49,693 bases of DNA, from IMG/VR virus record IMGVR_UViG_3300048908_000031. One strand, 5' to 3'. Source of the DNA: a virus. Numbering within the stretch: position 1 is the first letter of the stretch; the number at the start of each line of letters is the position of its first letter. The translations under genes and the position numbers were made by a program. The notes beneath the pieces were generated by a model. It worked only from the letters and a program-made list of their open reading frames with translations. It searched no databases and was not told the origin of the DNA. Shown one piece after another: positions 2,252 to 15,106 of this stretch.

Positions 2252-2977
2252 TTAGATGGCCATTTCGGCCTGTGTTTCTCGCAGCCAGATGGGAGAGCTG
2301 TTGTGTGATTCGATCCTATCTGCGATCACATTGGCACGCTGGCCTGCCGTTGGCGGAACGTACATCCCGTAGCGCTTGATGCTGCCTCCGTTGACCGTTG
2401 CATTTGTAGAGTCAGCCGAAGTCAGCGGCAGGTGCTGGAAGATCTCCGGGTTAAGCATGCGCAAACCATGCAGTCGACAGATCGGCCGTCCGTGCTCATC
2501 GCAGATTTCATTCATCGCCGCGCCTATGCGCTTCCACCATGGCTTTGTGCCTGGCGATGACCACTGGCCCGAACTACCGATTGCAACTGTCGGCCATTCA
2601 GTGGCCAGACGCTGAAGACGCTCAAGCGATTCGTGCAAATGCCAGACCGGAACGCCGCGAAACTCCTTTGGCCACTCTGCCAACAGCGCGTCATTCGCCG
2701 CCTCGTTACCGTCGATCACGTCAGGGATAAGTGCCCAATCGAAGCCTGGATGCCTATGCCACTGTTCAACCCAGCGGGTATACCCGTCGACGTCCATTGG
2801 CACGCCCTTCGTCCAGGCCGAGAACGCACCGTTATCAAAAACAAATGACTGGCAGGCCTCGGCAACGATGCCCATGTCATCCTGGCGTGGGAACGGCACT
2901 AATGCATGGCGCCCCATGAGAAAGCTGGCCTTGCAGTTGAGCGTCCCACCGACTGGCGTACCGTGGTAATGGATCAT
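2252..2977 (-). CDS. TGT-superfamily TIM-barrel protein, DpdA-like putative DNA 7-deazaguanine transglycosylase
   Basis: 241 aa with alternating beta/alpha pattern. FVFDNGAFSAW resembles TGT LTDSGGFQ, LHGLRML resembles TGT LMGVG, and LTSADSTNA resembles the catalytic Asp strand. ATGA-coupled to the QueF-like gene. Confidence 0.45.
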   Translation of the reverse strand: MIHYHGTPVGGTLNCKASFLMGRHALVPFPRQDDMGIVAEACQSFVFDNGAFSAWTKGVPMDVDGYTRWVEQWHRHPGFDWALIPDVIDGNEAANDALLAEWPKEFRGVPVWHLHESLERLQRLATEWPTVAIGSSGQWSSPGTKPWWKRIGAAMNEICDEHGRPICRLHGLRMLNPEIFQHLPLTSADSTNATVNGGSIKRYGMYVPPTAGQRANVIADRIESHNSSPIWLRETQAEMAI

Positions 2978-3219
2978 GCCGCCAGCCTTACCGTTTCAAT
3001 CTCTACACCTTGGTGCGTGGCCGTTATCGTTTGATCTCCGCCCAGCGCCTCGGCCAGTCGATCAGCGATCTGCTCGTGCCATCCTTTCTTGATCAGTGCA
3101 GTGGCCGCCTTGATGTGCTCGACATGAATCATCGCCAGCGCCCTGATCTCAAGTCGATAGATGATCGCTTCTCCGTCGGACGGGCAGACAGCTGTAAAAG
3201 TGTGCCGGTAAGTATTCAT
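2974..3219 (-). CDS. Minimal QueF-like T-fold protein (81 aa)
   Basis: [20 protein letters not shown] resembles QueF [31 protein letters not shown] resembles VESKSLKLYL, and [12 protein letters not shown] resembles HEDCMNIIMNDL. The layout is beta-beta-alpha-alpha-beta-beta, and the N-terminal NADPH-binding part of QueF is absent. Confidence 0.45.
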   Translation of the reverse strand: [81 protein letters not shown]

Positions 3220-3258
3220 GGGAATTCCTTGCCCATAGCGGGCCGCTTGATTGATTGG

Positions 3259-3426
3259 TTATGCCGCAGGGGATCGCAGCCCATCCCGCTCAGCCCGCAC
3301 AATCGCATGGCGAATTCCTCGGCCAAGGTAGCGCTCGATCAGGTGCCAGGTGACGCCATCGGTGTGCAGCTCGTAGGCGAGCACGAGGGTTTCGCGGGTA
3401 TGCTTGAATTGGGCGCCGGGCTTCAT
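3259..3426 (-). CDS. Small hypothetical protein (55 aa), possible HTH
   Basis: The internal ATG forms an ATGA overlap with the upstream stop at 3423-3426. Product is MKPGAQFKHTRETLVLAYELHTDGVTWHLIERYLGRG... Confidence 0.45.
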   Translation of the reverse strand: MKPGAQFKHTRETLVLAYELHTDGVTWHLIERYLGRGIRHAIVRAERDGLRSPAA

Positions 3427-3968
3427 GGCTTCGTCTCGCCGGTATAGGTTCGCCACGGCATATTGCGGCCGCTGACCATGAAGCCCCAGTCGCCACGCCA
3501 CTTGCTGGTGATGAACAGAGTGAATGCGCCTTCTGGCTGCACGTAGTCGATGCGGTGGTACTCGCCGAACGTCAGTGTCGCGGTATCACCCGAACGGCGG
3601 ATGATTCGCACTCGTCGCGTTACCGACAGGATCGATCTGGTTCCTTGGCGAATGGCTGGCCGCTCTTCGGTGTACCCGCCGCGCAGGATGATGGTGCGCG
3701 CATTCCACGGGTGCGAGTGCAGGTCGCGGTCAGCATCCGGCCGCATGATGTGGTGAATTCGGATCGACCACGGGAACCACCAGAATTTCGCCTTGTGCGT
3801 CTCGCGGCTGTACGGGTTGAACAGCCACCAGCGGCCCATGTACATGTCGGAACCGTCGGCGGACATGATGTGCTGGTACGGGGTGCGCTGGGCTCGGGCG
3901 ATGAGCCAGTTGGCGATGGCTGGGCGGGCAAGCAGCTTGGCGAGCAGGCGCCAGAAGAGATTGATCAT
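3423..3968 (-). CDS. Cupin-fold metalloprotein-like hypothetical protein
   Basis: 181 aa from MINLFW. Cupin motif 1-like LHSHPWNARTIILRGGYTEE and motif 2-like GDTATLTFGEYHRID. ATGA overlaps at both ends. Confidence 0.5.
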   Translation of the reverse strand: MINLFWRLLAKLLARPAIANWLIARAQRTPYQHIMSADGSDMYMGRWWLFNPYSRETHKAKFWWFPWSIRIHHIMRPDADRDLHSHPWNARTIILRGGYTEERPAIRQGTRSILSVTRRVRIIRRSGDTATLTFGEYHRIDYVQPEGAFTLFITSKWRGDWGFMVSGRNMPWRTYTGETKP

Positions 3969-4324
3969 GATTTCACCAGTTCGGCAGGGACGCGCACGGT
4001 GTCGCCCAGCTTGTTGGCGACGATGGCGCGGCAGGCAGCAATGATCGGTGTTTCTGCATGCCATGCCGCCGTTGAATCTGTCCAAGCGCATGGGTTGCAG
4101 GCTTCATCGGAGTAGATGATGCTGACGCGATACCTAGCGATAAGCGGGCCGCACTGGTGCCAGTTGAACGATGGCATCCAAGGGGATTGCAGGCCAGGAC
4201 ACACGTTTATGCGCAACTCCTTGCCGAGAGAATCGTCAATCACGATTTCGCAGGCCAATGCCACTGCCCAATCCAGCGCCGGGCCAATCAGTTCAGCCGT
4301 CTTCACTTCGGTCGTCTTATCCAT
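3965..4324 (-). CDS. DUF2591 (NinX-like) family protein, paralogue 1
   Basis: TAELIGPALDWAVA at the N-terminus and CRAIVANKLGDTVRVPAELV at the C-terminus. The C-terminus is nearly identical to that of the 20321..20710 product. Confidence 0.7.
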   Translation of the reverse strand: MDKTTEVKTAELIGPALDWAVALACEIVIDDSLGKELRINVCPGLQSPWMPSFNWHQCGPLIARYRVSIIYSDEACNPCAWTDSTAAWHAETPIIAACRAIVANKLGDTVRVPAELVKS

Positions 4325-4500
4325 CACTCACCCTCCTTCTGTGCCGCCCGGTACGCCCGGACGATCTTGTAAATAGCCGCCTTGCTCAACTTGAATCGCT
4401 TGGCGGCCTCGTCGGCGCTGTACGTCTGGTAGCACTCGATAATCTTGGCGTTGCGTGCTGCGTTCTTTCCCGGTTTCGGCCCGGACTTGTGAGTTTTCAT
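4324..4500 (-). CDS. Small HTH DNA-binding protein (58 aa), not in the supplied ORF track
   Basis: Product is MKTHKSGPKPGKNAARNAKIIECYQTYSADEAAKRFKLSKAAIYKIVRAYRAAQKEGE. It starts directly after the pentapeptide gene stop and has a TGATG overlap with the next gene. Confidence 0.6.
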   Translation of the reverse strand: MKTHKSGPKPGKNAARNAKIIECYQTYSADEAAKRFKLSKAAIYKIVRAYRAAQKEGE

Positions 4501-5079
4501 TCAGTCGGCTCCTTTCTCGGGCGCCTCATAAGGAACGGCAGGCGATGCTTCGATGATGGTTTTCAGAATCGGTTTCCAGATCGACCACCAGGCTGATGCG
4601 CGCGAATCCATTTCCTGAATTTCTTCATCGCCGAACGCCCACCACTCAGTCAATGCATGGAACTGGCAACCGATCTGCATCTTGTCCGCTGTGTACGTCA
4701 CCGGCCAGAGATCGCACTGCACAGACTTGACCTGCGACAGGTTGCCGAAAGCGCCCCATATCGAAGCGGCGTAGCGCAGGTCGGCGTAGCGCAGGTCGGC
4801 GTAGCTCAGGTCGGCGGAGCTCAGGCTGGCGTAGCGCAGGTCGGCGTAGCGCAGGTCGGCGGAGCTCAGGTTGGCGGAGCGCAGGCTGGCGTAGCGCAGG
4901 TCGGCGTAGCGCAGGTCGGCGGAGCGCAGGCTGGCGTAGCGCAGGTCGGCGTAGCGCAGGTCGGCGGAGCTCAGGTTGGCGGAGCTCAGGTTGGCGCGTT
5001 CGCCGCCCTCTTCATCGTTTAGCCATGCGCGGTGCTTCCGAATGATCTCGTCAAGTTGTTCAGTGGTGAAAGTTCGCAT
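4501..5079 (-). CDS. Pentapeptide-repeat protein: about 15 A(D/N)L(R/S)(Y/S) repeats plus a unique ~90-aa C-terminal domain
   Basis: [30 protein letters not shown]... is a canonical pentapeptide periodicity. 192 aa with RBS GGAG. Confidence 0.9.
4766..4995. repeat. About 15 tandem copies of a 15-bp unit (gcgtagcgcaggtcg / gcggagctcaggttg variants) inside the pentapeptide gene
   Basis: Near-identical 15-bp units with higher-order 45-60 bp periodicity are directly visible at 4766-4995. Confidence 0.9.
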
Positions 5080-5107
5080 TGGTCTTACTCCATTGATTTA
5101 TGTTTGG

Positions 5108-5998
5108 TTAAAGTGCTGCGAGGGTCCGCTCATACAGGTCATCATGCTCGGCGGACATCGGTGATTTGGTGTTCTGGCGCTCGGCGACTAGCACGCCGCC
5201 CGACAGGAAGCCGGTGACGATCGGTGCGACGGTCTTGGCCTGCGTCACCAGAAACAGGTGGCCGTCGTTGATCACGTGCAGCTGCGAGCGCGGAATCAGG
5301 TTGGCCATCATGCGCATGTTGACCAGCGGAATCAGTGGGTCGTCATTGCCGGCCAGTACCAGCGTCGGCTGCTTGATCTTGTGCAGCCAGTGCGCTGAGG
5401 TCCATGCCCAAACCGCCATGGCTTGATAGTAATAACCGCGCCCGCTGGGCGATTTCATCTTGCTGGTGTGCGCGGTGGCCAGCGACTTGTCGTAACGGAA
5501 CGCGCCGCCGTAGATGTCCGGGGCGATGCGTGCACCGTGCTCGGGGTCGGTGTAGCGGCGTGGCGAGGCCATCAGGCTCAGCACCTTGAGTGATGGGGGC
5601 ACCATGGCGACCCCGCAGGAGGTGGCAGCAAGGATAAGTCGTCTGCACCGGTGCGGCTGGTCATAGGCGAACTGCTGGGCCAGAAAGCCTCCCCACGACA
5701 CGCCGATCACGTTGACTTGGTCATAGCCCATCACGTCCAGCATCGTGGCGACGGTCTTGGCCATGCCGCGAAAGGTGTACGGCAGCAGCGGAGCCGGCGA
5801 ACCTCCGACACCGGGCACGTCGAAAGCGATGATTTCTTGGTCAGGGTCCAGCTCATTGGTGAACGGGATGACCAAGTCCAGCGATGCGCCGATGCCGTTG
5901 AACACCACCAGCGGGGTCAGGTGCGATTTACCTGGGCGAACCGCCGTCCTGATTGACAGCCCATCCACTTGAACAGTGCGGAAAACAAAAGCCTTCAT
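5108..5998 (-). CDS. phaZ: Intracellular medium-chain-length polyhydroxyalkanoate depolymerase homologue (alpha/beta hydrolase)
   Basis: Colinear with Pseudomonas PhaZ as recalled: FRTVQVDGLSIRTAVRPGKSHLTPLVVFNGIGA, IAFDVPGVGGS, lipase box GVSWGG, MASPRRY, QPTLVLAGNDDPLIPL and DGHLFL. Start at MKAFVF with RBS GGAG. Confidence 0.85.
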   Translation of the reverse strand: MKAFVFRTVQVDGLSIRTAVRPGKSHLTPLVVFNGIGASLDLVIPFTNELDPDQEIIAFDVPGVGGSPAPLLPYTFRGMAKTVATMLDVMGYDQVNVIGVSWGGFLAQQFAYDQPHRCRRLILAATSCGVAMVPPSLKVLSLMASPRRYTDPEHGARIAPDIYGGAFRYDKSLATAHTSKMKSPSGRGYYYQAMAVWAWTSAHWLHKIKQPTLVLAGNDDPLIPLVNMRMMANLIPRSQLHVINDGHLFLVTQAKTVAPIVTGFLSGGVLVAERQNTKSPMSAEHDDLYERTLAAL

Positions 5999-6015
5999 TT
6001 CGTCGTGCTCCGGTT

Positions 6016-6033
6016 GGTCCTTATTGATGGACT
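6016..6033. promoter_or_regulatory. Operator-like inverted repeat, site G (minus strand reads AGTCCatcaataaGGACC)
   Basis: GGTCCttattgatGGACT lies immediately downstream of the putative -10 of the phaZ promoter. Confidence 0.55.
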
Positions 6034-6034
6034 C

Positions 6035-6063
6035 ACTATGCGCTGACAATCCGGTTAGGTCAA
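6035..6063 (-). promoter_or_regulatory. Candidate sigma70 promoter of the phaZ cassette (TTGACC-17-CATAGT)
   Basis: The minus strand reads TTGACC (6058-6063), a 17-nt spacer, then CATAGT (6035-6040). It sits between a terminator and the phaZ start. Confidence 0.45.
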
Positions 6064-6084
6064 CAAACAAGTCAACGATTTATG

Positions 6085-6110
6085 CAAAAAGAAACCCGGC
6101 GAACCGGGCG
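6085..6110 (-). terminator. Rho-independent terminator-like hairpin inside the early operon, upstream of the phaZ cassette
   Basis: Minus-strand RNA has a CCCGG-UUCG-CCGGG stem-loop followed by UUUCUUUUU. Confidence 0.5.
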
Positions 6111-6123
6111 ATGTTTGTAGTCG

Positions 6124-6420
6124 TCAGATCGAAAGAAGATCGGTCTTACGGTAGCACTCAGCCGGAAACCCGTACTCGGCACAGCTGCACGCCTCGCCGC
6201 AGCGCTCATCGCGCGATTCAATGCGCATCAAGCCATGCTTGACGGCCATGTCTTGGATGTCGCCGCCGTCAAAGCTGCCGCCCTCGAAGGCGGCGCTGAT
6301 CATTTCGTTGGCGAAGTCCTGTAACGCGTACAGACTGGCAGTTACTCGGTCGAAGTCTTCGGCGCGGACGCATTTGACACCGCGAGCATCATCCGAAAAG
6401 AATTTCTGAACATCACTCAT
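6124..6420 (-). CDS. Hypothetical protein (98 aa) with a Cys-rich C-terminus
   Basis: Start MSDVQKFF with RBS GAGGGA; ends ...ERCGEACSCAEYGFPAECYRK. Confidence 0.55.
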   Translation of the reverse strand: MSDVQKFFSDDARGVKCVRAEDFDRVTASLYALQDFANEMISAAFEGGSFDGGDIQDMAVKHGLMRIESRDERCGEACSCAEYGFPAECYRKTDLLSI

Positions 6421-6565
6421 CACTGATCCCTCTGGTATTTGGCCTGTCGCATCTTGGAGCAGGCCGAGTGGTTGCCGGATGCGCGGACCTTTCCGCACAC
6501 GTCACAGCAGTTTGATATGGCAAGGCGCGGCATGGGTGGGCGCTGGTTGCGGCGCCTGCGTGGGG

Positions 6566-8053
6566 TCATGCGACCTCCTGGTCTCCGATTTCTTTAAGCA
6601 GTCGTCGGCCAATCCAGCGAACTACGGGAACGGCTTTGCTATTTCCGATCGCCTTGTAGCGGGGGCCGTCCGGGCACTCGCTTGCTGGCTTGCCGCGCCA
6701 GGGGATGAGGGTGTAATCGTCGGCCATACCCTGTAGGCGTTCGCACTCGACTGGAGTGAGGCGGCGCACAGAGCTCGTATGCGACACAATGTTGGGGCCC
6801 AGAGCTGAGTCCGTGTTGTCGACCTGTTTGCCGTAGTTGCAGGTCAGCGTCTGGGCCACTTCTCGACATGCAACAATCGGCTGACCGCGCCCGGTGCCAT
6901 CCTCGCTGCCGTCGAAACCCTCAGCCTTCAGCGTGTGGGTGATTTCTCCAGTGATGCACACAGCTACCTGGCCGCCGGCGTTTGCATGGCTGCCTGAGTG
7001 ATTCATTGCCCGCAGAGTGGGTGCAATTACCCCGGCATCGGCGCCGTGATCCTTGCAGGAGAAAGCCAGCACTGCATTTTCCTGGCCGTTGTTTCTGCCC
7101 AGAGCGTGCGCTTGGTCAATGCTTACACAGGGGTCTTGCGTACCGTGTACTACAAAGGCTTCGCTTTCGAAGTCCATCCTTCCGCTGGCGCTGGCGCACG
7201 CATTGCGTGCTGGAGCCACCTCAATTGGGCCGCTGGTGTTGTTCCCCCCGAACACCAGAAGGGATTCTCTCGACTCATGGTCACCATATGGGTTGGTCGT
7301 TAAAGCTGCAGTTACGTGAGGGATGTCGTCGGTGCTGTATCCGCCGTTCTTTCGAGCGCCGCCAGTAAGGGTGCCGGCAACATCTTTCCCCTGGCCTCGG
7401 CGCGGCGCAGTATCCCGGCGCACGCCTTCGCGCTCAAAAAGTACCTCGGTGGGATCGAACCCGTCTCGAGCACTTGCGACAACGAACACACGACGGCGTC
7501 GTTGGGCCAGGCCGAAATATTGGGCGTCCAAGATCCGCCATGCGATTGTTCTTTGGGGTCCATACACACAACCAGCGTCCGGCCACCTTTTCCCTGAAGG
7601 CTGCAGTTCGCAGTCTTCCCCAGCAAGCGCGCCAAGAAAGCATCCGAAGGCGTTGCCTTTGTCGGAAAGGACGCCGGGGACGTTTTCCCAGACAACGACA
7701 GAGGCTGGCAGTCCTCGACTGGCTCGAACATAGTCATTTGCATCTGCAAGCTCCACGTATTTGATGGTGAGGGCGCCGCGGGGGTCGGCAAGTCCTTCGC
7801 GCATGCCGGCCACACTGAATGCCTGGCAGGGGGTTCCGCCGACCAGAACGTCCGGCGCCTCGATCTTCCCAGCAAGGACCATGGTCGCAAGCCGTGTCAT
7901 GTCGCCCAGGTTCGGCGTTTGCGGGTAGTGGTGCGCCAGTACGGCGCTGGGGAATGGATCGATTTCAGCGAACCATGCGGCCTTCATTCCGAGCGGGTGC
8001 CAAGCTACCGTAGCAGCCTCTATTCCACTGCAAATGCTTCCGTAGGTGATCAT
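6566..8053 (-). CDS. DNA (cytosine-5)-methyltransferase
   Basis: Motifs in order: I (YGSICSGIEA), IV (GGTPCQAFSVAG), VI (WENVPG), VIII (QRRRRVFVV), IX (RRLTPVECERLQG) and X (AIGNS). The variable region between VIII and IX is long. Confidence 0.95.
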   Translation of the reverse strand: MITYGSICSGIEAATVAWHPLGMKAAWFAEIDPFPSAVLAHHYPQTPNLGDMTRLATMVLAGKIEAPDVLVGGTPCQAFSVAGMREGLADPRGALTIKYVELADANDYVRASRGLPASVVVWENVPGVLSDKGNAFGCFLGALAGEDCELQPSGKRWPDAGCVYGPQRTIAWRILDAQYFGLAQRRRRVFVVASARDGFDPTEVLFEREGVRRDTAPRRGQGKDVAGTLTGGARKNGGYSTDDIPHVTAALTTNPYGDHESRESLLVFGGNNTSGPIEVAPARNACASASGRMDFESEAFVVHGTQDPCVSIDQAHALGRNNGQENAVLAFSCKDHGADAGVIAPTLRAMNHSGSHANAGGQVAVCITGEITHTLKAEGFDGSEDGTGRGQPIVACREVAQTLTCNYGKQVDNTDSALGPNIVSHTSSVRRLTPVECERLQGMADDYTLIPWRGKPASECPDGPRYKAIGNSKAVPVVRWIGRRLLKEIGDQEVA

Positions 8054-8076
8054 GGGGTCATCCAGTAAAAGAGGGG

Positions 8077-8412
8077 TTATTGCGACAGCGGCGCTAACTG
8101 CGAATCGCTCGGATTCTTCAGCAGCTCTCGGCGCGATTCGTTCTCGAAGCGACGCGCTACGGATTCGCTGATTCGTATTTTGTGGCGCGGCGGGCGAAGG
8201 AACTCAACCAGTTCGGCGTCGGTCATGGCGTCCATCTTGAGGATGGCCAGCTGGATGACTTCGCTGATCTCTGGTGTGCTCGACCGCTCACGGATTCGAT
8301 CCATTGCCGCCTCGATGCCTGGCCGTACCTTATGTCGAAGTTCCTTTTCTGCGAGCTTGCCACGCTTGGCTGCGGCCTTCTGGCTGCGCTGCTGGGTTGT
8401 CATTGCGGTCAT
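8077..8412 (-). CDS. Hypothetical protein (111 aa)
   Basis: ORF in the operon orientation; ATGA overlap with the upstream gene. Confidence 0.55.
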   Translation of the reverse strand: MTAMTTQQRSQKAAAKRGKLAEKELRHKVRPGIEAAMDRIRERSSTPEISEVIQLAILKMDAMTDAELVEFLRPPRHKIRISESVARRFENESRRELLKNPSDSQLAPLSQ

Positions 8413-8696
8413 TTCTTCTTCCTTTTCTTCGGGGTGCCACGGCCATGAGCCAGCCAGCCGGCGCCGATCACCTGGTCACCGACTTCCTTGATCAGTTCGT
8501 CCACGCGTTCATTGACGGCCGGCACCAGGTCGAACATCAGGGCGCTGGGTATCGTCATGGCGTGAACCGTCTTTTCACCGGATGGAAGGGTTAACCACAC
8601 GCTGACTTCCCAGCGAATGGGCTTCGAGGGTCGCGTACCCTTCGGCAGCGTGTGCCCGCCGTTCGGGCCGATGGTGTGCAGCACTGTCATCGTCAT
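8409..8696 (-). CDS. Hypothetical protein (~95 aa) with a Lys-rich C-terminus
   Basis: ORF with internal ATG start MTMTVLHT; the start position is uncertain (8690/8696/8750). Confidence 0.5.
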   Translation of the reverse strand: MTMTVLHTIGPNGGHTLPKGTRPSKPIRWEVSVWLTLPSGEKTVHAMTIPSALMFDLVPAVNERVDELIKEVGDQVIGAGWLAHGRGTPKKRKKK

Positions 8697-8768
8697 GGGA
8701 TAGCCCGCTCGGGGTGATGTTGATGTGGGATTGCCGGCGTCGTGCGGCAACCCTTGAACTGATGCGCT

Positions 8769-9254
8769 TCACTTCTTGAATTCGATCCCGTAGGTGGCGA
8801 TCAATCGTTTCGCCTTGTGATGGCCGATACCGATGTGGTTGGCGGCGAGGGTCTTTTTAATACCGACCCCGGCCAGCGCCTTGAGTCGTTCGGCCAGCTT
8901 GGCGTCCTCGACCGGATCGATAACGCAGGAGCCACGGCTTTTCTGGTTTTTACCGGTACCGGAAACGCACTTGATGCCATTGTCCCGGCAGGTCCGGTTG
9001 ATCCTGTCGAGCGACACGCCCAGACGCATGACCATCTGCGTCTTGCTCATCGTCTTGCCCATTTCGCGGACTTGCTCGACGAATGCGCGGCGATCGCGTT
9101 CTTCCTGCGAGATAAGCGGCTCGATGCGCGGCGGTTTGGGCTGGTCCTGGTACGCCTCGATTTCCTCGACCTTGCCGCCTGAGCGGAAAAATGCTGCCTG
9201 TGCGGCGGCCAGCGCTGATCTGTCGACCTGTCTGATGTCGTTGTATTGGTTCAT
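8769..9254 (-). CDS. Hypothetical protein with two HTH-like segments
   Basis: Start MNQYNDIRQ. The segments are MSKTQMVMRLGVSLDRINRTCRDNGI and GIKKTLAANHIGIGHHKAKRLIATYGI. Confidence 0.5.
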   Translation of the reverse strand: MNQYNDIRQVDRSALAAAQAAFFRSGGKVEEIEAYQDQPKPPRIEPLISQEERDRRAFVEQVREMGKTMSKTQMVMRLGVSLDRINRTCRDNGIKCVSGTGKNQKSRGSCVIDPVEDAKLAERLKALAGVGIKKTLAANHIGIGHHKAKRLIATYGIEFKK

Positions 9255-9308
9255 ATGGCACCCAAAAGAAAGGGCGCTCATTGGCGCCCAGTTGGTTTGA
9301 TTGGTTGG

Positions 9309-9989
9309 TTACTTCTTCAGCGCCTTGACCAGGTACGGGTCGACGTCAGCCTGGCGCAGCAGCCATAACTTGTAATCGGCAGGGATGTCGGCGATTTTCG
9401 ATCCGGCGTGCTTGCCGAAGCGGATCACAGTCGGAATTCGCGCCTCTTCTGAGATTTCCCACAACCTTTCCCAGCTTCCCACTTCCTGGCCAGGCTCAAA
9501 GATCAGACGATTGACGATCGCGATCAGCAGACGGCGGCAGTTGTGCACGTCGTCGAGTGCGGCGTGAGCGTTCTTTAGCAGCTCGCGCGCCTGGTCCCGG
9601 TAGTGCAGGTAGATCATCGCCGATTGGCTGTGCGAGTCGGCATCCGGCCAGAGCGAACGGCTCAGCGCCTGGGTGCAGATGCGTTTCACGTCAGGCTGAC
9701 CGATCACGCTCCAGTCATAGTCGACGTTGTGGCCGATGATGTAGGTGGTGCCGGCGGGAAGTGCGAACTCGGTGTGCGGCGGGCAGTCGACCAGATCTTC
9801 GTCGAGGATATGTGCGGTAGCCAGGGCGCTAAGCTCAATCGGCTTGTTTGGCTTGTAGCGCTGAAGGAATTGCTCAGCGACCGTCAGCGTCTGGATGCTT
9901 TCCAGTCGAAGCCATGCCGCCTCAGTTGGCTGCGGCTCTTTCAGGCCGGTTGTTTCGAAATCGAGAATAATTGCTGTCATGTAGGTCAT
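9309..9989 (-). CDS. DnaQ-like 3'-5' exonuclease with a DUF3820-like C-terminal domain
   Basis: Exo I ILDFETTGL, Exo II GHNVDYDWSV, Exo III HAALDDVHNC. C-terminal FGKHAGSKIADIPADYKLWLL. Confidence 0.85.
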   Translation of the reverse strand: MTYMTAIILDFETTGLKEPQPTEAAWLRLESIQTLTVAEQFLQRYKPNKPIELSALATAHILDEDLVDCPPHTEFALPAGTTYIIGHNVDYDWSVIGQPDVKRICTQALSRSLWPDADSHSQSAMIYLHYRDQARELLKNAHAALDDVHNCRRLLIAIVNRLIFEPGQEVGSWERLWEISEEARIPTVIRFGKHAGSKIADIPADYKLWLLRQADVDPYLVKALKK

Positions 9990-10058
9990 CCGTTTTCAGG
10001 TGTGGTGGGTTGCCGGCAGCTGGGGCGCTGCCGGGTATTGCTCGGGGCGGATTATCGA

Positions 10059-10703
10059 TCAATCAAATGGAATGTCATCGAAGTCCGGCGCGTCGTCCAT
10101 TGGGCCGGTCTGGTAGTTCGTCGACTGGACCTGTTGGTTGCGCAGCTTGCGTACCGGGTTCTTCGCAATGAACGCCATAAAGCCGCCGAGCGACGAAGGC
10201 TTGGTCTGTTTGGACAGGATTTCAGCGGCCATCAGTTCGGTGCTGTACTCGAACGGGGCGGCAATGATCATTCTCTCGCCGATTTCACCACTCTGCTTCT
10301 GGTATTCCTCCTGCTGGAGAACCAGGCCGAGCTTCTTTCCTTTCAGCTCAATGGCGCACTCTTTCTGCTTGGGCACCATGATCTTCTGGTCGTAGTCGTA
10401 AAGCTCGATGGTTTCCTGTTTCCAGTTCAGCGACTTTACCTTGGCGCAAGTCATCAGCGCATTGAGCTGCTTGTACCCGGCCAGGGTTTCCCCGCTGCCG
10501 TTGTGCGTGTACAGGTTGAGTGGCCCGCATTCCTGGCCGTTGTCACCGATAAACATCAGGTTCACGCTTTCGGTGCCTTTCGGGTTTTTCTCGTAGAACG
10601 CCGCAGTAACGGTGCCCATGTACTTGCCGGTTTCCGTGATGCGCTTGCCGCCAGTGTTCGCTTCTTTAGCTGCCTGGGTGTCAAGGTTGTATGCGCGTGC
10701 CAT
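10059..10703 (-). CDS. Phage ssDNA-binding protein (DUF669-like) with an acidic SSB-type tail
   Basis: The C-terminus is DDAPDFDDIPFD. The gene lies directly downstream of a Sak4-like ATPase. Confidence 0.7.
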   Translation of the reverse strand: MARAYNLDTQAAKEANTGGKRITETGKYMGTVTAAFYEKNPKGTESVNLMFIGDNGQECGPLNLYTHNGSGETLAGYKQLNALMTCAKVKSLNWKQETIELYDYDQKIMVPKQKECAIELKGKKLGLVLQQEEYQKQSGEIGERMIIAAPFEYSTELMAAEILSKQTKPSSLGGFMAFIAKNPVRKLRNQQVQSTNYQTGPMDDAPDFDDIPFD

Positions 10704-10784
10704 ATAGTGCCTCCAAGGGCCTTAGTTTCGGTTGTGTTGGTGCTGCTGGGTTGGCTCGACCCATTAACTGTGTCGGGCGGTGAC

Positions 10785-11435
10785 TCAGGCCTGAACAGTT
10801 AGGCCGTAAAACTCGCTTATCGCCTCATCGACCTTCGCCAGGTCATTGTCAATACTTCTGTCTTCGAACATGCCAATTGGGCTCTTGCAGCAGTCCTGGC
10901 CGTTCGTTTGCGTGCTGAACTGGTAATCGCCACTGGTGACCTCAGTCCTGAGTACGATCGTAAAGAACCCCTCAGGCACCAGCGTACTGTCGACGAGCTT
11001 GCCTACCGTTTTCATTCGGACATTCCCAAAGTCGTCGGTCTGCGTGTGGGCCAGGATGTAAACCCGGCGATGGTCTGCCAGGTCACCAGCTGCGTTGAAG
11101 ATGTTCCAAGCGTTTTTGCCGATGTCGGAGAACTTCGTGTAGCCAGTTTCACTGCTCCGGGTCATCAGCTCATTGACCATCACCGCTTGGTAGTCATCGA
11201 TCACGACCACATCATGGGGTGAGTTGCGCATGATCTTCTCAATCATGGCCGGGTTGTCGGTTCGGATGACGTTGCCCGCATCCTTCATGGTTGCTCGGAC
11301 CTTCCAGCCTGGCGCCTTGAACGGCAATGGCTTCTTGATGCACTGGATGACCAGGGTTTTCTTCGGATCAAGGTTCCGAAGGCTCGTTGATTTACCGCTG
11401 CCAGAGTTGCCTAAAATCAGAGTCGCGATGCTCAT
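10785..11435 (-). CDS. Sak4-like RecA-fold ATPase (single-strand annealing/recombination)
   Basis: Walker A LILGNSGSGKST and Walker B-like VVVIDDY. The context is DUF1351, then this ATPase, then DUF669 SSB, then the exonuclease. Confidence 0.75.
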   Translation of the reverse strand: MSIATLILGNSGSGKSTSLRNLDPKKTLVIQCIKKPLPFKAPGWKVRATMKDAGNVIRTDNPAMIEKIMRNSPHDVVVIDDYQAVMVNELMTRSSETGYTKFSDIGKNAWNIFNAAGDLADHRRVYILAHTQTDDFGNVRMKTVGKLVDSTLVPEGFFTIVLRTEVTSGDYQFSTQTNGQDCCKSPIGMFEDRSIDNDLAKVDEAISEFYGLTVQA

Positions 11436-11444
11436 TTGTCTGCC

Positions 11445-11588
11445 TCAGATTGGTTGCCTATCCCATTCCCGCTCAATGCGGGCGGCTTCGTCTTCATATT
11501 CCCGGCGCTGCTCACCCGTGAACTGCTCGGGCGAGAAGGCGCCGACCGTGGCCCAGTCGAGCTGGGCGGTCATGCGTGGCGAGTTCAT
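11445..11588 (-). CDS. Small hypothetical protein (42-47 aa), not in the ORF track
   Basis: Product is MNSPRMTAQLDWATVGAFSPEQFTGEQRREYEDEAARIEREWDRQPI. It fills the gap between two genes on the same strand. Confidence 0.35.
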   Translation of the reverse strand: MNSPRMTAQLDWATVGAFSPEQFTGEQRREYEDEAARIEREWDRQPI

Positions 11589-11596
11589 GCTGAGCC

Positions 11597-12706
11597 TCAG
11601 TAGGCGATGGTCACGCCGGGGATGACGCGGCTTGCGATCAGAACGACTGCCTGCTTTGCACAGGCCTCAGTCATACCGCCCTTGATGAATGCCTCCATGG
11701 CCTCCCGGTTGATCTTGCCCCGGTGGGCTTTGTCGGCTTCGCGCAGGTTCTGCTGGCGAATGATTTCGTCGGCTGCGGCCTGTTGGCGGTCCACTTCATC
11801 CTGTTTGGCCTTCTCAACTGCCGCTTTCTGGCTTTCGATAGCGGCCAGTCGGTCGCGCTCGGCCTTCTGCTCTGCCTCTACCTTTTCGCGCTTTGCCAGT
11901 TCGGCTTTTCGCTCGGATTCGGCGGCGACCAGCTTCAGGTCGTTCTCGCGCTTCTCGGCAGCAGCTTGCTCGTCCTTGACACGCTGAGCTTCTGCATCAC
12001 GTTCACGCTGAGCCTTTTCTTCAGCTTCACGGGTGGCGCGTTCGGCTGCCTCGCGGGCAATGCGGTCTTCGTGGTCCTTCTTGTCACGGTCTTCCTTCTC
12101 TTTGCGAAGGCGTGCCAGCTCCAGCTGCTCAGCTTCGTACTGCTGGCGCGTGGTCAATGCGGCGTTCAATGTTACCAGCGCTGATTCCTTGGCCAGCGCG
12201 GCGTCAACCTGGAACTCTGCCCACTTGTCCGCGATGATTACCCACTCAGCCGAAGCGATGCGGGATTCAAGTTCCGCAACCGTCAGCCCATCCAAGTCCG
12301 CGGCCAACGCTGCAATCTTGGCGATGTCGTCCTTGATGGACGCAATCCGTCGTTCTTCCGCCGCCTCCCAGTCGTCCAACGGCTTGCGAACTTCCTTCTG
12401 CCACAGCTCCAGGGTGTCCCACACGCGCTTACGCTCGGCGTCGATGCGCTTCGGCACTTCCTTCTGCTGGGCCGACAGCTCCTTGCCCACGGCATCCAGC
12501 GCCGTCTTCGACTTGGCGACCTTGTGGGCCATTGAGGCGTACAGGTCGCGACCCTTCTTGGTGGTCAGGTCCGGCAGCACCGACAGGAATTTGTCGACCT
12601 CGGCGCGGATCTGGCCCAGCCACGGGTCAAGCCCGTTCGCAGCGCTGTACACGGTCAGGGCGGTTTCTTTCGGCGGGACGGCCGCCAGTTCAGTAGTTGC
12701 AGACAT
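11597..12706 (-). CDS. DUF1351-like coiled-coil protein of the recombination module
   Basis: 369 aa with a long E/K/A/R-rich coiled-coil centre; lies upstream of the Sak4-like ATPase. Confidence 0.6.
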   Translation of the reverse strand: MSATTELAAVPPKETALTVYSAANGLDPWLGQIRAEVDKFLSVLPDLTTKKGRDLYASMAHKVAKSKTALDAVGKELSAQQKEVPKRIDAERKRVWDTLELWQKEVRKPLDDWEAAEERRIASIKDDIAKIAALAADLDGLTVAELESRIASAEWVIIADKWAEFQVDAALAKESALVTLNAALTTRQQYEAEQLELARLRKEKEDRDKKDHEDRIAREAAERATREAEEKAQRERDAEAQRVKDEQAAAEKRENDLKLVAAESERKAELAKREKVEAEQKAERDRLAAIESQKAAVEKAKQDEVDRQQAAADEIIRQQNLREADKAHRGKINREAMEAFIKGGMTEACAKQAVVLIASRVIPGVTIAY

Positions 12707-12767
12707 GCGTGTATCTCCCGCGCCATCCGGGACCGGGGCGCTGCTTGAGTTAGTTGGGTGGAGGGGG

Positions 12768-13025
12768 TTACTTGGCGGCTTTCTTGAGCGCTTGAGTCAG
12801 CATTCGGTAGTAGCGTGCGAACCGCTCCGGCTGTTCATCCTCGAATCGCCAGCCAGGATCTCGGCACCAACCACATTCTTCCTCTGAGCAATCGTGCGCA
12901 GGTTCGTCCCGGATATGCTTCTTGATGATCGCCCGTGCCTCGGCATTGATCGCTGCGGGCTTCGTGAGGAATCGCCGTCGAGCTGTAGGAGCGAAGTAGA
13001 CCTTCGCCTGCTGGGTGGCAATCAT
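12768..13025 (-). CDS. Hypothetical protein (~85 aa)
   Basis: ORF with RBS GGGGAG before MIATQQ. Confidence 0.5.
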   Translation of the reverse strand: MIATQQAKVYFAPTARRRFLTKPAAINAEARAIIKKHIRDEPAHDCSEEECGWCRDPGWRFEDEQPERFARYYRMLTQALKKAAK

Positions 13026-13027
13026 GG

Positions 13028-13183
13028 TCAGTCTCCCCAATATGACCAGTCTTCATGCAGAGCATCTTTCGGCGACCAGCCTGGGAATGTCTCATGAAGG
13101 CTTTCGACGTAAGACCAATTCGCCCAGCCCATGGTCTTGTGCATGTACAGGTAGCCTCGAAGGATCCAAATGAACTTGCTCAT
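13028..13183 (-). CDS. Small hypothetical protein (51 aa), Trp-rich, not in the ORF track
   Basis: Product is MSKFIWILRGYLYMHKTMGWANWSYVESLHETFPGWSPKDALHEDWSYWGD. It has an ATGA overlap upstream, and its stop is 2 nt before the next start. Confidence 0.45.
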   Translation of the reverse strand: MSKFIWILRGYLYMHKTMGWANWSYVESLHETFPGWSPKDALHEDWSYWGD

Positions 13184-13377
13184 ACCCGTCGCTCCCGCAC
13201 CGCAATTCTTCTGCCCTTCATGGTCGCCGCCAGTTGCACCGGCAGATCCGCGACCAGAAACCCGCGCTCCCGGCCAATCACTTCGTTGAACGGCAGGCCG
13301 AAGGCGATGATCGCCAGTCTTCTTTCGATGAGTTCAATCTCTTCGTCGATCAGGGACTTCACTGGGGAAGTGGTCAT
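13180..13377 (-). CDS. Hypothetical protein (65 aa)
   Basis: ORF with ATGA overlaps at both ends. Confidence 0.5.
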   Translation of the reverse strand: MTTSPVKSLIDEEIELIERRLAIIAFGLPFNEVIGRERGFLVADLPVQLAATMKGRRIAVRERRV

Positions 13378-13946
13378 TTGGCAGCCTCCTTGCGATAGCC
13401 AATGTCGTAGAGGTATTTGGCCATCTCGATGTCGCGGACGGCGATGTGCTGGTCATGTCCTGCGAGGATTCCGGCCAGCTCGACAGATGCCTTGTCGCGC
13501 TCATCCGCTGCGTTCTGCTCTAGCGTGCGGATTGGCCGGAATGAAATTTCACCCTCGCCATCACCAACAACGCCGGTCTGCTCGCCCTTGAGGTGTGGTG
13601 GGAACATTACGACTTCGACAGGACAGTCATGGTACGGGGTCGTGATGTAGCGAATTTCACATTCGAACCAAGGCCCTTGGCCAACGCGATACTCACAAAC
13701 CGTCCCGACTGGTGGAGGGCTGTAGCCGAACCATGACACTGGCCGCGCAATCATCCGACCCCGTACATCACTCAGAACAGTCGGTTTTTTGATGTTTTTC
13801 AGACGACCATCTTCCAGAACCGACCACGCCTCCGTGAATTTCCCGCCTTCCTCCCGCCAGAAAACTGCTAGCCATACGCCGCTGTCGTCGAGCGGGTGCG
13901 TGTAATGGGTCGCCCCTTCCGGCGCCTTACTCCAGTCGATAGTCAT
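13374..13946 (-). CDS. Hypothetical protein (190 aa)
   Basis: Internal start MTIDWSKAPEG forms an ATGA overlap with the upstream stop. The longer 274-aa form has a non-protein-like N-terminus. Confidence 0.55.
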   Translation of the reverse strand: MTIDWSKAPEGATHYTHPLDDSGVWLAVFWREEGGKFTEAWSVLEDGRLKNIKKPTVLSDVRGRMIARPVSWFGYSPPPVGTVCEYRVGQGPWFECEIRYITTPYHDCPVEVVMFPPHLKGEQTGVVGDGEGEISFRPIRTLEQNAADERDKASVELAGILAGHDQHIAVRDIEMAKYLYDIGYRKEAAK

Positions 13947-14164
13947 GCTGCCTTCCCCTTCAAAAGTTCGACATACCGCGTCATTTCCAGCCCGCGAATC
14001 GTTTTGGTGTAGGTGTCGCGCTCGGCGCCGGTGATCGCGTCCAGGCTGTGCGCCATGAACACCGCCATTCGCGCAACCGAGGCGGCCATGACCGGGAATT
14101 CGGTGCCGGGTATCGTCTCGATTTCCTTTTCGATCATGTGCACTGCAGTGTCGTGCGTGTTCAT
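13943..14164 (-). CDS. Hypothetical protein (73 aa)
   Basis: Internal start MNTHDTAVHMIEKE forms an ATGA overlap with the upstream stop. Confidence 0.5.
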   Translation of the reverse strand: MNTHDTAVHMIEKEIETIPGTEFPVMAASVARMAVFMAHSLDAITGAERDTYTKTIRGLEMTRYVELLKGKAA

Positions 14165-14397
14165 TCCTTGACTCCGTTGTATCCGAAGAAGTCGCCAATC
14201 TGCTCGACCGCAGCGCTGATCCGCAGAGCTGTAGCCTTGCGTTCCGCCCGAAGAATCTTCCTTCGTTCGTCGAGCTGCCGGGTCTGTTCCTCGTAGTCGT
14301 GGAACTGGTCGGCCTGTACCTTTTTCGGTCGCCCGTAGGCGTCGTAGCGCCGGTCCCACTCTCGGGCTTGGGCGCTGTCTGCGTAGCTTGTAGCCAT
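14161..14397 (-). CDS. Hypothetical protein (78 aa)
   Basis: ORF in the operon orientation. Confidence 0.5.
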   Translation of the reverse strand: MATSYADSAQAREWDRRYDAYGRPKKVQADQFHDYEEQTRQLDERRKILRAERKATALRISAAVEQIGDFFGYNGVKE

Positions 14398-14426
14398 GTG
14401 ATACCTCCTTTGAGTGGGCGTTGTGG

Positions 14427-14861: not shown

Positions 14862-14874
14862 GACTTACTCCTTC

Positions 14875-15006: not shown

Positions 15007-15106
15007 GATTCCTCCGGGATGCGTCTGTAATTAGTCCTTGCGGCTTGCGACAGCGGGTGTCCGTCGTCTCTCTAATGCGAGCGCTTTAGCTTCCATGTCT
15101 GACTCC

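What the first reader, a model, noticed from the sequence alone, without database searches (positions are those of the whole stretch)
5108..6110. Phage-borne PhaZ (mcl-PHA depolymerase) homologue in its own terminator-promoter-operator cassette
The 5108..5998 product is colinear over essentially its full length with Pseudomonas intracellular PHA depolymerase. It has the GVSWG lipase box, DDPLIP Asp and DGHLFL His, plus a ~30-aa C-terminal extension.

It is insulated from the upstream early genes by a hairpin plus U-tract (6085-6110, minus strand). It has its own TTGACC-17-CATAGT promoter, and a copy of the genome-wide AGTCC-N8-GGAC operator overlaps the predicted transcription start.

This looks like an auxiliary metabolic gene. 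It could liquidate the host's PHA carbon store to fuel replication, or alter granule-associated physiology in a lysogen. I am not aware of this being a described phage function.
Basis: partly seen in the sequence, partly recalled or inferred. Interest (0 to 1): 0.7.

Follow-up and report, generated by a model that had tools for sequence, protein, structure and literature searches.

The report
Phage-encoded PHA storage-polymer depolymerase
A Pseudomonas phage carries an intact copy of the enzyme its host uses to break down its bioplastic (PHA) carbon store, and it belongs to a large, previously unstudied lineage of such genes kept under selection in many unrelated phages, which suggests phages tap this store during infection.

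Summary
ORF 5108..5998 (minus strand, 296 aa) is a full-length member of the intracellular mcl-PHA depolymerase family. It scores 410 bits on TIGR02240 (cutoff 250.6) and is 62% identical to P. putida PhaZ, with the Ser101/Asp220/His247 triad, FNGIG loop and lid present. The hairpin, TTGACC-17-CATAGT and AGTCC-N8-GGAC motif are where stated. The motif is enriched: 10 strand matches at 6 sites, 0.41 expected.

Corrections:
- No terminator follows the gene; a pentapeptide-repeat gene starts 28 nt after its stop.
- The net C-terminal extension is about 11-13 aa, not 30.
- It is not a recent host capture.

The window is a complete Pseudomonas myovirus genome. Its PhaZ belongs to a phage lineage:
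- 44 IMG/VR contigs (5-307 kb, about 15 gene neighbourhoods) carry relatives, none next to phaC.
- All 80 best cellular relatives (63-67% identity) are phaC-flanked and form a separate clade (98-100% bootstrap).
- Phage copies keep the triad (100/101), show dN/dS of 0.02-0.18, and match each phage's GC content.

Most likely it is an auxiliary gene that mobilises host PHA during lytic growth; this is untested. Only Ralstonia phages RP12/RP31 have a published annotation, without study. Interest is moderate to high.

The parts
5108..5998 (-). phaZ-like CDS, 296 aa: an intracellular mcl-PHA depolymerase homologue. Ser101 lies in GVSWG, Asp220 in DDPLIP and His247 in DGHLFL. The lid spans about residues 133-197. 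The C-terminal tail runs 266-296, with a predicted helix at 283-295.
   Evidence: TIGR02240 410 bits, cutoff 250.6. Pfam Abhydrolase_1 4.9e-34. 62% identity to P. putida PhaZ. Alignments A1 and A2. AF2 model with pLDDT 88.
6008..6011 (-). Shine-Dalgarno-like GGAG, 9 nt upstream of the ATG
   Evidence: Read directly from the sequence.
6017..6033 (-). AGTCCATCAATAAGGAC: one copy of the enriched AGTCC-N8-GGAC(T) dyad. It starts 1 nt after the -10-like hexamer and so overlaps the predicted transcription start.
   Evidence: Motif enrichment, 10 matches against 0.41 expected. 16 of 17 bases identical to the site at 15958. Identical in relatives L008 and L009.
6035..6063 (-). Sigma-70-like promoter candidate: TTGACC (6063-6058), 17-nt spacer, CATAGT (6040-6035)
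   Evidence: Consensus scan, 9 of 12. Hexamers unchanged in L008 and L009. Not statistically distinguishable from chance on its own.
6085..6110 (-). Intrinsic-terminator-like hairpin (stem 6109-6094) followed by TTCTTTTT, directly after the stop codon of the upstream ORF (6124-6498)
   Evidence: Scan. Fold of -10.9 kcal/mol, z = -1.3. The homology block shared with relative L008 begins here, at window 6120.
4501..5079 (-). Pentapeptide-repeat protein gene. It starts 28 nt after the phaZ stop with no terminator between, so it is probably co-transcribed.
   Evidence: Pfam Pentapeptide 2.7e-21. Sequence. The same arrangement occurs in L001, L008 and L009.
3423..6120 (-). Mosaic block shared at 88.5% nucleotide identity with the related 48-kb IMG/VR phage contig (L008). 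It holds the hairpin, promoter, phaZ, the pentapeptide gene, a 58-aa HTH/Mor-like ORF, a NinX-like ORF and a phrog_4786 ORF.
   Evidence: blastn of the window against L008. Pfam and PHROG hits.
15845..15862 (.). Perfect AGTCC-N8-GGACT dyad in the regulatory region
15958..15974 (+). AGTCCATCAAAAAGGAC: nearly identical to the phaZ copy. It lies directly after TATGGT, upstream of a Cro/CI-type HTH ORF (16031-16264).
16813..16830 (.). Perfect dyad upstream of the Rha/anti-repressor-like regulator gene (16923-17660)
22100..22117 (.). Perfect dyad, 6 nt upstream of a perfect TATAAT (22124-22129)
24406..24423 (.). Perfect dyad in the gap between the early-right genes and the lysis/late genes

Best explanation
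The gene encodes a catalytically competent, cytoplasmic mcl-PHA depolymerase of a lineage that has lived in phages for a long time. It is the first gene of a transferable accessory block in the leftward early region of a Pseudomonas myovirus.

Proposed course of events:
1. The block is transcribed from its own promoter. That promoter carries the same operator-like dyad as the promoter of the phage's Cro/CI-type regulator gene.
2. The enzyme is therefore made early after infection or induction, independently of the host's PhaD-controlled phaC1-Z-C2 operon.
3. It hydrolyses the host's PHA granules to (R)-3-hydroxyalkanoic acids.
4. Host acyl-CoA synthetase and beta-oxidation convert these to acetyl-CoA and reducing power. 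This supports phage replication in the nutrient-limited, PHA-loaded cells that are typical of soil Pseudomonas.

Shown here: family membership, intact triad and lid, purifying selection, phage residence, and enrichment of the motif. Inferred: the substrate in vivo, the timing of expression, and the benefit to the phage.
For: **Family and structure.** TIGR02240 equivalog, 410 bits against a cutoff of 250.6. 62% identity to P. putida PhaZ across the fold. Ser101, Asp220 and His247 correspond to Ser102, Asp221 and His248 of PhaZKT (PMC12504323) and are invariant in A1 and A2. The FNGIG loop with its Asn is retained, as is Ser183 (= Ser184 of PhaZKT). The AF2 model is an alpha/beta hydrolase with lid helices at 137-197, pLDDT 88.

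**Phage genome and host.** Portal, protease, sheath, tape measure, baseplate, spanin, SSB, Sak4 and exonuclease are all present. The genome is circularly complete. The host genus is Pseudomonas: portal homologues at 81-86% identity lie in Pseudomonas chromosomes.

**Phage lineage.**
- 44 IMG/VR contigs carry relatives, in about 15 neighbourhood groups whose checked neighbours are phage genes.
- 0 of 51 phage or metagenome loci have a phaC neighbour, against 80 of 80 cellular loci.
- The cellular clade excludes all phage copies, with 98-100% bootstrap.
- A context prediction from the tree was confirmed for P0067, which is cellular.

**Selection and residence.** The triad is kept in 100 of 101 phage-side sequences. 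dN/dS is 0.02-0.18. The gene's GC content follows each phage's GC, 0.42-0.62.

**Host matching.** The Ralstonia phage RP12 copy groups with Burkholderiaceae PhaZ.

**Regulation.** The motif is enriched and is 16 of 17 bases identical to the copy at the Cro/CI-type gene.
Against: - No activity, expression or PHA measurement exists for any phage PhaZ.
- The promoter and the terminator are each no better than chance matches by the scans.
- What binds the dyad, and whether it represses or activates, is unknown.
- Five residues separate the phage copies from the cellular ones: S39/N, F105/A, P135/G, M181/V and V196/G. Three of them lie at the lid boundaries. A single lid-hinge substitution in PhaZKT (S184F) abolished depolymerase activity while raising esterase activity (PMC12504323). 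Altered specificity therefore cannot be excluded.
- Monophyly of the main phage clade is weakly supported (34% bootstrap).
- The genome scan stopped at 600 pattern matches, so prophage-borne copies in isolate genomes could have been missed.
Confidence: 0.6

Rival explanations
1. Lysogenic-conversion moron. The gene is expressed from the resident prophage and changes PHA turnover of the lysogen, for example faster mobilisation of reserves in starvation or stress. It would benefit the host and so the prophage, rather than fuelling lytic growth.
For: There is a terminator-like hairpin upstream and a separate promoter candidate, the classic moron layout. The block is exchanged as a unit between related phages. 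Relatives of the structural genes reside in Pseudomonas chromosomes, so the phage group includes prophages. In L029 the gene is flanked by hairpins on both sides.
Against: The same lineage is carried by large and jumbo phages that look strictly lytic. These include 86-116 kb contigs with replication and nucleotide-metabolism genes, 284-307 kb contigs, and the phiKZ-related RP12/RP31. Selection must therefore act in lytic infection in those phages. The operator-like dyad at the transcription start is shared with the promoter of the Cro/CI-type gene. This fits repression in the lysogen at least as well as expression. No integrase was found among the ORFs scanned.
Confidence: 0.15
2. Repurposed esterase. 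The phage lineage has drifted from PHA to another ester substrate, such as a lipid, an acyl-homoserine lactone, a 3-hydroxy-fatty-acid conjugate, or a small molecule involved in host defence or signalling. The PhaZ name would then be misleading.
For: Clade-specific substitutions lie next to the nucleophile elbow (F105, A in cells) and at the lid boundaries (P135, M181, V196). The hinge YYWQLF of PhaZKT reads YYYQAM here. The S184F precedent shows that lid changes can switch PhaZKT from depolymerase to esterase. The nearest solved structures are generic esterases, including an AHL-degrading one, at about 22-28% identity. The conserved cellular tail ERQRAVMHP is missing from most phage copies and is only partly kept (ERQ) in this one.
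Against: The score is far above the equivalog cutoff, and the next family scores 113 bits. The lid is full length, and Ser183 and the FNGIG Asn are retained. Phage copies are matched to their host lineage: Pseudomonas-type in Pseudomonas-like phages and Burkholderiaceae-type in a Ralstonia phage. This is expected if the target is a host-specific structure such as the PHA granule.
Confidence: 0.15
3. Neutral passenger or artefact. Either a host fragment was picked up by chance and is decaying, or host DNA was mis-binned into viral contigs.
For: Several IMG/VR contigs are short, 5-15 kb.
Against: The ORF is intact, with dN/dS of 0.02-0.18. The triad is kept in 100 of 101 sequences. No phaC or other pha gene lies nearby or anywhere in the window. 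The gene sits inside a circularly closed phage genome between phage genes. Its GC content is ameliorated to each phage. No cellular copy is closer than 67% identity.
Confidence: 0.03

Closest known systems
PhaZ of Pseudomonas putida KT2440/KT2442 (PhaZKT), the model intracellular mcl-PHA depolymerase; family TIGR02240
   Same: 62% identity and colinear over 276 residues. It has the same alpha/beta-hydrolase core with a lid. The triad is the same (Ser102/Asp221/His248 there, Ser101/Asp220/His247 here), as are the FNGIG loop and its essential Asn. There is no signal peptide.
   Different: - It is encoded by a phage, not between phaC1 and phaC2.
- It falls outside the Pseudomonadaceae cellular clade.
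- It has clade-specific residues at F105, P135, M181, V196 and S39.
- The hinge reads YYYQAM instead of YYWQLF.
- The C-terminal tail differs and is 11-13 aa longer, with a predicted helix.
- It is presumably under phage control rather than PhaD control.
Poly(3-hydroxyalkanoate) depolymerase ORF269 / ORF266 of Ralstonia jumbo phages RP12 / RP31 (Matsui et al. 2017, PMC5468394)
   Same: It is the only phage PhaZ homologue found in the GenBank phage collection. It is named in a paper's gene list. It is a phage-borne member of the same family.
   Different: It is only 48% identical. It groups with Burkholderiaceae PhaZ, not with the Pseudomonas or phage lineage, so it is an independent acquisition. 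It sits in a phiKZ-related lytic jumbo phage. It was never analysed functionally, and GenBank labels it 'hypothetical protein' or 'esterase/lipase'.
Phage auxiliary metabolic genes for carbon and energy supply. Examples: PHA-synthesis-side genes such as phaC reported in phages of PHA-producing mixed cultures (PMC12013262), and a PHB-depolymerase candidate in a Gloeobacter prophage (preprint PMC13317609).
   Same: It is a host-derived metabolic enzyme kept in phage genomes, and it would redirect host carbon during infection.
   Different: Those reports are metagenomic annotations. The first concerns synthesis genes. The second concerns a short-chain PHB depolymerase in one prophage. Neither describes a phage-specific lineage of the mcl-type intracellular enzyme.
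Morons of lambdoid phages: accessory genes carrying their own promoter and terminator (general concept, from my own knowledge)
   Same: It is an accessory gene block that begins at a terminator-like hairpin plus a promoter candidate. It is exchanged as a unit between related phages.
   Different: There is no terminator directly after the gene, and the block holds several genes. It lies in the early-left operon, and its promoter carries a phage operator-like dyad. This suggests phage-controlled rather than constitutive expression.

Membership tests
Intracellular mcl-PHA depolymerase PhaZ (NCBIfam TIGR02240, PHA_depoly_arom) | Whole-protein HMM score above the curated equivalog cutoff | tested here: met
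   410.3 bits against a cutoff of 250.6, covering model positions 2-264 of 276. The next family scores 113 bits.
Intracellular mcl-PHA depolymerase PhaZ (NCBIfam TIGR02240, PHA_depoly_arom) | Catalytic triad Ser (in G-x-S-x-G) / Asp / His at the positions of PhaZKT Ser102/Asp221/His248 | tested here: met
   Ser101 (GVSWG), Asp220 and His247 are invariant in A1 and A2. They are present in 100 of 101 phage-side and 129 of 129 cellular sequences. Residue numbers of PhaZKT are taken from PMC12504323.
Intracellular mcl-PHA depolymerase PhaZ (NCBIfam TIGR02240, PHA_depoly_arom) | Alpha/beta-hydrolase core with an intact lid domain (about residues 133-192 of PhaZKT) and the FNGIG loop | tested here: met
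   AF2 model with pLDDT 88 and pTM 0.86, with lid helices at 137-197. The fold matches esterases and hydrolases at TM 0.7-0.78. FNGIG is at residues 33-37, with the Asn invariant. The hinge sequence differs: YYYQAM here against YYWQLF.
Intracellular mcl-PHA depolymerase PhaZ (NCBIfam TIGR02240, PHA_depoly_arom) | Cytoplasmic enzyme: no signal peptide and no separate substrate-binding domain | tested here: met
   The N-terminus MKAFVFRTVQVDG aligns residue for residue with the cellular N-termini. The protein is a single domain. No dedicated signal-peptide predictor was run.
Intracellular mcl-PHA depolymerase PhaZ (NCBIfam TIGR02240, PHA_depoly_arom) | Gene located in the pha cluster between phaC1 and phaC2 (typical context, not part of the HMM definition) | tested here: not met
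   There is no PhaC or other pha-cluster homologue in the window or in any of the 51 phage or metagenome loci. All 80 cellular loci have a phaC neighbour.
Intracellular mcl-PHA depolymerase PhaZ (NCBIfam TIGR02240, PHA_depoly_arom) | Hydrolysis of mcl-PHA granules to 3-hydroxyalkanoic acids | not testable with these tools
   This needs an enzyme assay.
Phage auxiliary metabolic gene / moron | Encoded on a bona fide phage genome, flanked by phage genes | tested here: met
   Structural, lysis and replication genes were identified. A relative's contig bridges the window ends, so the genome is complete.
Phage auxiliary metabolic gene / moron | Homologue of a host metabolic enzyme, maintained by selection in phages | tested here: met
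   dN/dS of 0.02-0.18. 44 viral contigs in about 15 contexts. GC content ameliorated to each phage.
Phage auxiliary metabolic gene / moron | Own promoter and own terminator bracketing the gene | tested here: inconclusive
   An upstream hairpin and a promoter candidate are present and conserved in close relatives. Each is individually weak. There is no terminator downstream, and the next gene follows after 28 nt.
Phage auxiliary metabolic gene / moron | Expression during infection and a measurable effect on host metabolism or phage fitness | not testable with these tools
   This needs RNA-seq, PHA quantification and burst-size assays.

The most novel reading that the evidence does not exclude
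Phage-borne PhaZ is a distinct and old enzyme lineage. It has spread among many unrelated Pseudomonas phages (temperate-type 48-50 kb, 86-116 kb and jumbo), and it arose independently in a Ralstonia jumbo phage. Its lid-hinge substitutions and divergent C-terminal tail would make it a deregulated, always-active depolymerase. The enzyme would liquidate the host's PHA store on infection. Raiding storage polymers would then be a general phage strategy in soil and rhizosphere bacteria, and host PHA status would be a determinant of phage productivity.
Probability: 0.4. Interest if true: 0.75.

Novelty: new member of a known kind. Interest (0 to 1): 0.6.

Why it matters
PHA can make up a large share of the dry mass of starved Pseudomonas and is their main mobilisable carbon and energy reserve. 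If phages bring their own depolymerase, productive infection of slow-growing, nutrient-limited cells would have an explanation. That is the normal state of soil bacteria, in which phage replication is usually energy-limited.

It would also add storage-polymer mobilisation to the known classes of auxiliary metabolic genes. It would bear on phage effects on soil carbon turnover and on phage contamination of industrial PHA fermentations.

The phage lineage is also a ready-made panel of natural PhaZ variants, differing at the lid hinges and the C-terminal tail. Recent engineering of PhaZKT found these regions to control activity and specificity (PMC12504323). The panel is therefore relevant to enzymatic recycling of mcl-PHA.

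The hypothesis is directly testable in the well-developed P. putida system.

Tried and rejected
- **Recent capture from the host: rejected.** The best cellular identity is 67% among species-representative genomes. Cellular copies form their own clade.
- **Host DNA contaminating a viral contig: rejected.**
- **Near-identical phage in GenBank: none found.** Only short 76-87% matches to methyltransferase and exonuclease genes came back, plus an unannotated faecal 'Bacteriophage sp.' contig matching the structural half at 78%.
- **Conserved partner gene next to phage phaZ** (phasin, acyl-CoA synthetase, PhaC): none found. The recurrent neighbours belong to single phage families.
- **Known RNA element in 4000-7000:** no Rfam match at E <= 1.
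- **Rooting the tree to show that phage PhaZ is one clade:** unresolved. With a Burkholderiaceae outgroup, the cellular Pseudomonadaceae clade has 98% support. The main phage clade has only 34%, and phage plus cellular together 78%.
- **Solved structure of a close relative:** none. The best are esterases at 27-28% identity.
- **Literature linking PHA and phage burst size:** nothing found.
- **Invertible tail-fibre segment next to the serine recombinase:** no perfect inverted repeat of 14 bp or more.
- **Extended similarity among the six dyad sites beyond the dyad itself:** none seen in the alignment.
Full report
**1. The observation**

The minus-strand ORF 5108..5998 is real. The mechanical ORF list extends it to a TTG at 6070.

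The product is 62% identical to P. putida PhaZ over 276 residues with a single 5-residue gap.

It scores as follows against the family libraries:
- NCBIfam TIGR02240 (poly(3-hydroxyalkanoate) depolymerase, equivalog): 410.3 bits against a cutoff of 250.6. The next family scores 113 bits.
- Pfam: only the generic Abhydrolase_1.
- PHROGs: 'esterase/lipase'.

**2. The regulatory features**

All of them are at the stated places:
- The hairpin GCCCGG-TTCG-CCGGGT (6109-6094) followed by TTCTTTTT.
- TTGACC (6063-6058), a 17-nt spacer, then CATAGT (6040-6035).
- AGTCCATCAATAAGGAC (6033-6017), starting one base after the -10-like hexamer.

Their weight differs. Promoter-like and terminator-like matches in 1-17000 are no more frequent than in shuffles: 5 found against 6.2 expected, and 19 against 17.1. 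The hairpin is modest at -10.9 kcal/mol, z = -1.3. Their credibility therefore comes from position and from conservation in close relatives.

The dyad motif is different. It gives 10 strand matches at 6 sites against 0.41 expected, and no shuffle reached that number. All six sites are intergenic, and four are perfect AGTCC-N8-GGACT palindromes.

The phaZ copy is 16 of 17 bases identical to the copy at 15958-15974. That copy also lies directly after a -10-like TATGGT, upstream of a Cro/CI-type HTH ORF at 16031-16264 (phrog_35). From this I infer that the phaZ promoter belongs to the same regulatory class as an early promoter of the phage and is controlled by the same, still unidentified, DNA-binding protein.

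- There is no terminator after the gene. A pentapeptide-repeat gene (4501-5079) starts 28 nt after the stop, so phaZ heads a multi-gene unit rather than a single-gene cassette.
- The net C-terminal extension is about 11-13 residues, not 30. The tail beyond the conserved fold is 30 residues, but cellular PhaZ has an 18-residue disordered tail of its own (PMC12504323). AF2 predicts a helix at 283-295 in the extension. The ending YER..AL is shared only with the nearest subgroup.

**3. The genome around it**

The window is a phage genome. I identified:
- Structural and lysis genes: portal, head protease, tail sheath, tape measure, baseplate and Rz-like spanin.
- Replication and recombination genes: SSB, Sak4-like annealing protein and exonuclease.
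- Modification genes: two DNA methyltransferases and a DpdA-like transglycosylase.
- Regulators: Rha/anti-repressor-like and Cro/CI-type.

A related 48-kb IMG/VR contig (L008) runs uninterrupted across the window's two ends. The window is therefore a complete, circularly permuted genome.

Portal homologues at 81-86% identity lie in megabase-scale contigs of P. jessenii, P. brassicacearum, P. putida and others. The host is therefore a fluorescent Pseudomonas, and the phage group includes prophages. I found no integrase among the ORFs I scanned.

The homology block shared with L008 (window 6120..3423, 88.5% identity) begins exactly at the hairpin, and the gene upstream of it differs. phaZ is thus the first gene of a mosaic accessory block.

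**4. Relatives: a phage lineage, not a recent capture**

The closest proteins in 5.8 billion sequences are one at 98% identity, from a soil metagenome contig with ERF and SSB genes. After that comes a series at 62-74% from metagenomes. Named Pseudomonas PhaZs appear only at 60-65%.

Scanning IMG/VR found 44 viral contigs (5-307 kb) encoding relatives at 38-99% identity. Scanning one genome per bacterial species found at least 580 cellular relatives. The best 80 are all Pseudomonas at 63-67% identity. That scan stopped at 600 pattern matches, so it is not exhaustive.

A tblastn search with PhaC1 and PhaC2 separates the two sets cleanly. All 80 cellular loci have a phaC neighbour, and none of the 51 phage or metagenome loci has one. 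The window contains no other pha-cluster gene.

The trees give the same split:
- In neighbour-joining trees, the split between phaC-linked cellular copies and all others has 100% bootstrap support.
- With 120 database proteins added, every named Pseudomonas, Halopseudomonas and Zestomonas protein falls in the cellular clade. The window falls with 34 viral loci and 57 proteins of unknown context.
- I tested this prediction by looking up contexts. All seven phage-side proteins I looked up (P0006, P0007, P0009, P0017, P0035, P0045, P0093) lie among phage or phage-like genes. One cellular-side protein (P0067) lies between phaC and phaD with phasins.
- With Burkholderiaceae PhaZ as outgroup, the Pseudomonadaceae cellular clade keeps 98% support. 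Monophyly of the main phage clade is weak at 34%. The number of capture events is therefore open.

**5. The gene is at home in phages**

- The 45 phage loci fall into about 15 unrelated neighbourhood groups. These include a 19-member family of roughly 48-kb phages where the gene sits among head genes. There are also 86-116 kb phages, two contigs of 284 and 307 kb, and the isolated jumbo phage RP12. Neighbours that I checked are phage genes.
- The triad is kept in 100 of 101 phage-side sequences.
- dN/dS between close phage pairs is 0.02-0.18.
- The gene's GC content follows each phage's own GC content, from 0.42 to 0.62, rather than the cellular 0.58-0.69.
- The RP12 copy groups with Burkholderiaceae PhaZ at 56-62% identity. 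This is an independent acquisition matched to its host lineage.

**6. How it most likely works**

PhaZKT is a cytoplasmic, lid-bearing alpha/beta hydrolase that is highly specific for mcl-PHA. Its triad is Ser102/Asp221/His248, its lid spans 133-192, and its FNGIG loop is essential (PMC12504323). The phage protein retains all of these.

The simplest reading is that it does the same chemistry on the host's granules, under phage rather than PhaD control. The released 3-hydroxyalkanoic acids would feed beta-oxidation while the phage replicates. This last step is inferred from established knowledge of the PHA cycle and was not tested here.

The presence of the gene in apparently lytic large phages argues that the benefit is realised in lytic growth. 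The shared operator-like dyad fits early, phage-controlled expression.

The main rivals are:
- A lysogenic-conversion role, suggested by the moron-like layout and the prophage relatives.
- A shift of substrate. Five positions separate phage copies from cellular ones: S39/N, F105/A, P135/G, M181/V and V196/G. Three of them lie at the lid boundaries. In PhaZKT, a single lid-hinge change (S184F) converts the enzyme to an esterase that no longer degrades PHA.

**7. Comparison with what is known, and novelty**

As a protein, this is a member of a known family. All sequence and structure criteria are met. Only the usual phaC1-Z-C2 context is not.

Records of a phage PhaZ are scarce:
- Matsui et al. 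2017 list 'a poly(3-hydroxyalkanoate) depolymerase' among notable genes of RP12 and RP31, without analysis.
- A 2026 preprint mentions a PHB-depolymerase candidate in a Gloeobacter prophage.
- A 2025 study reports phage phaC and other synthesis-side genes, but no phaZ.
- I found no functional study of a phage PhaZ and no work linking PHA to phage productivity.

I therefore class the gene as a new member of a known kind. The added finding of a wide, selected, phage-resident PhaZ lineage does not appear to have been described.

**8. Verdict**

- The physiological role remains to be tested. The needed experiments are ordinary ones in P. putida.
- Interest: 0.6.

Noticed in passing
window 6017-6033, 15845-15862, 15958-15974, 16813-16830, 22100-22117, 24406-24423: An AGTCC-N8-GGAC(T) dyad occurs at six intergenic sites (10 strand matches, 0.41 expected). 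Two sites lie directly after -10-like hexamers, and one lies 6 nt upstream of a perfect TATAAT. It is probably the binding site of one phage regulator, whose identity and sign of action are unknown. As RNA, it could also form a 4-5 bp hairpin at transcript 5' ends.
   Followed up: partly
window 1281-1901 (-) and 45391-49693: A small serine recombinase or invertase (Resolvase domain, phrog_125) lies next to the tail-fibre genes across the circular junction. Short reverse-oriented ORFs lie at 49121-49693. This is reminiscent of Gin/Cin tail-fibre inversion systems. No perfect inverted repeat of 14 bp or more was found in 44001..2500.
   Followed up: partly
window 2252-2977 (-), 6566-8053 (-), 20880-21683 (+): A DpdA-like queuine tRNA-ribosyltransferase homologue (phrog_887) and two DNA methyltransferases are present. 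The phage probably modifies its DNA. The C5-methyltransferase at 6566-8053 is absent from the close relative L008.
   Followed up: no
window 4501-5079 (-): A pentapeptide-repeat protein with internally repeated DNA (about 4767-4996) lies immediately downstream of phaZ, in the same mosaic block. The pairing is conserved in L001, L008 and L009. Its function is unknown.
   Followed up: no
window 4324-4500 (-): A 58-aa HTH ORF with weak Mor-family and HTH_28 hits lies in the same block as phaZ. It is a candidate regulator.
   Followed up: no
L010 about 6055-6099, and the 45 nt upstream of phaZ in L011, L012 and L016: A conserved leader of about 45 nt, CGCGCTGAACGCCCTGGCGGGATTTCGGCTGCACGGAGCAATCGA, precedes phaZ in four phage contigs whose upstream genes differ. 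The gene travels with its own 5' region there too.
   Followed up: no
L029 7900-8000 and 8870-8900: In this 86-kb phage contig, phaZ is bracketed on both sides by GC-rich hairpins followed by T-runs, giving a complete moron-type cassette.
   Followed up: no
L132 (NCBI GCA_040384045.1 contig, 52 kb) and L005/L017 (116 kb): A large phage group carries phaZ alongside other metabolic or host-takeover genes: PhoH, NAPRTase with PRPP synthetase, a Band_7 protein, a Ro60/TROVE-like protein and RNase T.
   Followed up: no
L050 (Ralstonia phage RP12) 7887-8783: The RP12 PhaZ homologue is closest to Cupriavidus and Paraburkholderia 'poly(3-hydroxyalkanoate) depolymerase' (56-62% identity). This is a second, independent phage acquisition matched to its host lineage. 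GenBank labels it a hypothetical protein or esterase/lipase.
   Followed up: partly
window 26341-27753 (+): Some homologues of the portal protein are longer, 576-610 aa against 470 here. They carry an extra PF23474 domain, and sources name them 'anti-CBASS protein Acb1-like'. The window's portal lacks that extension.
   Followed up: no
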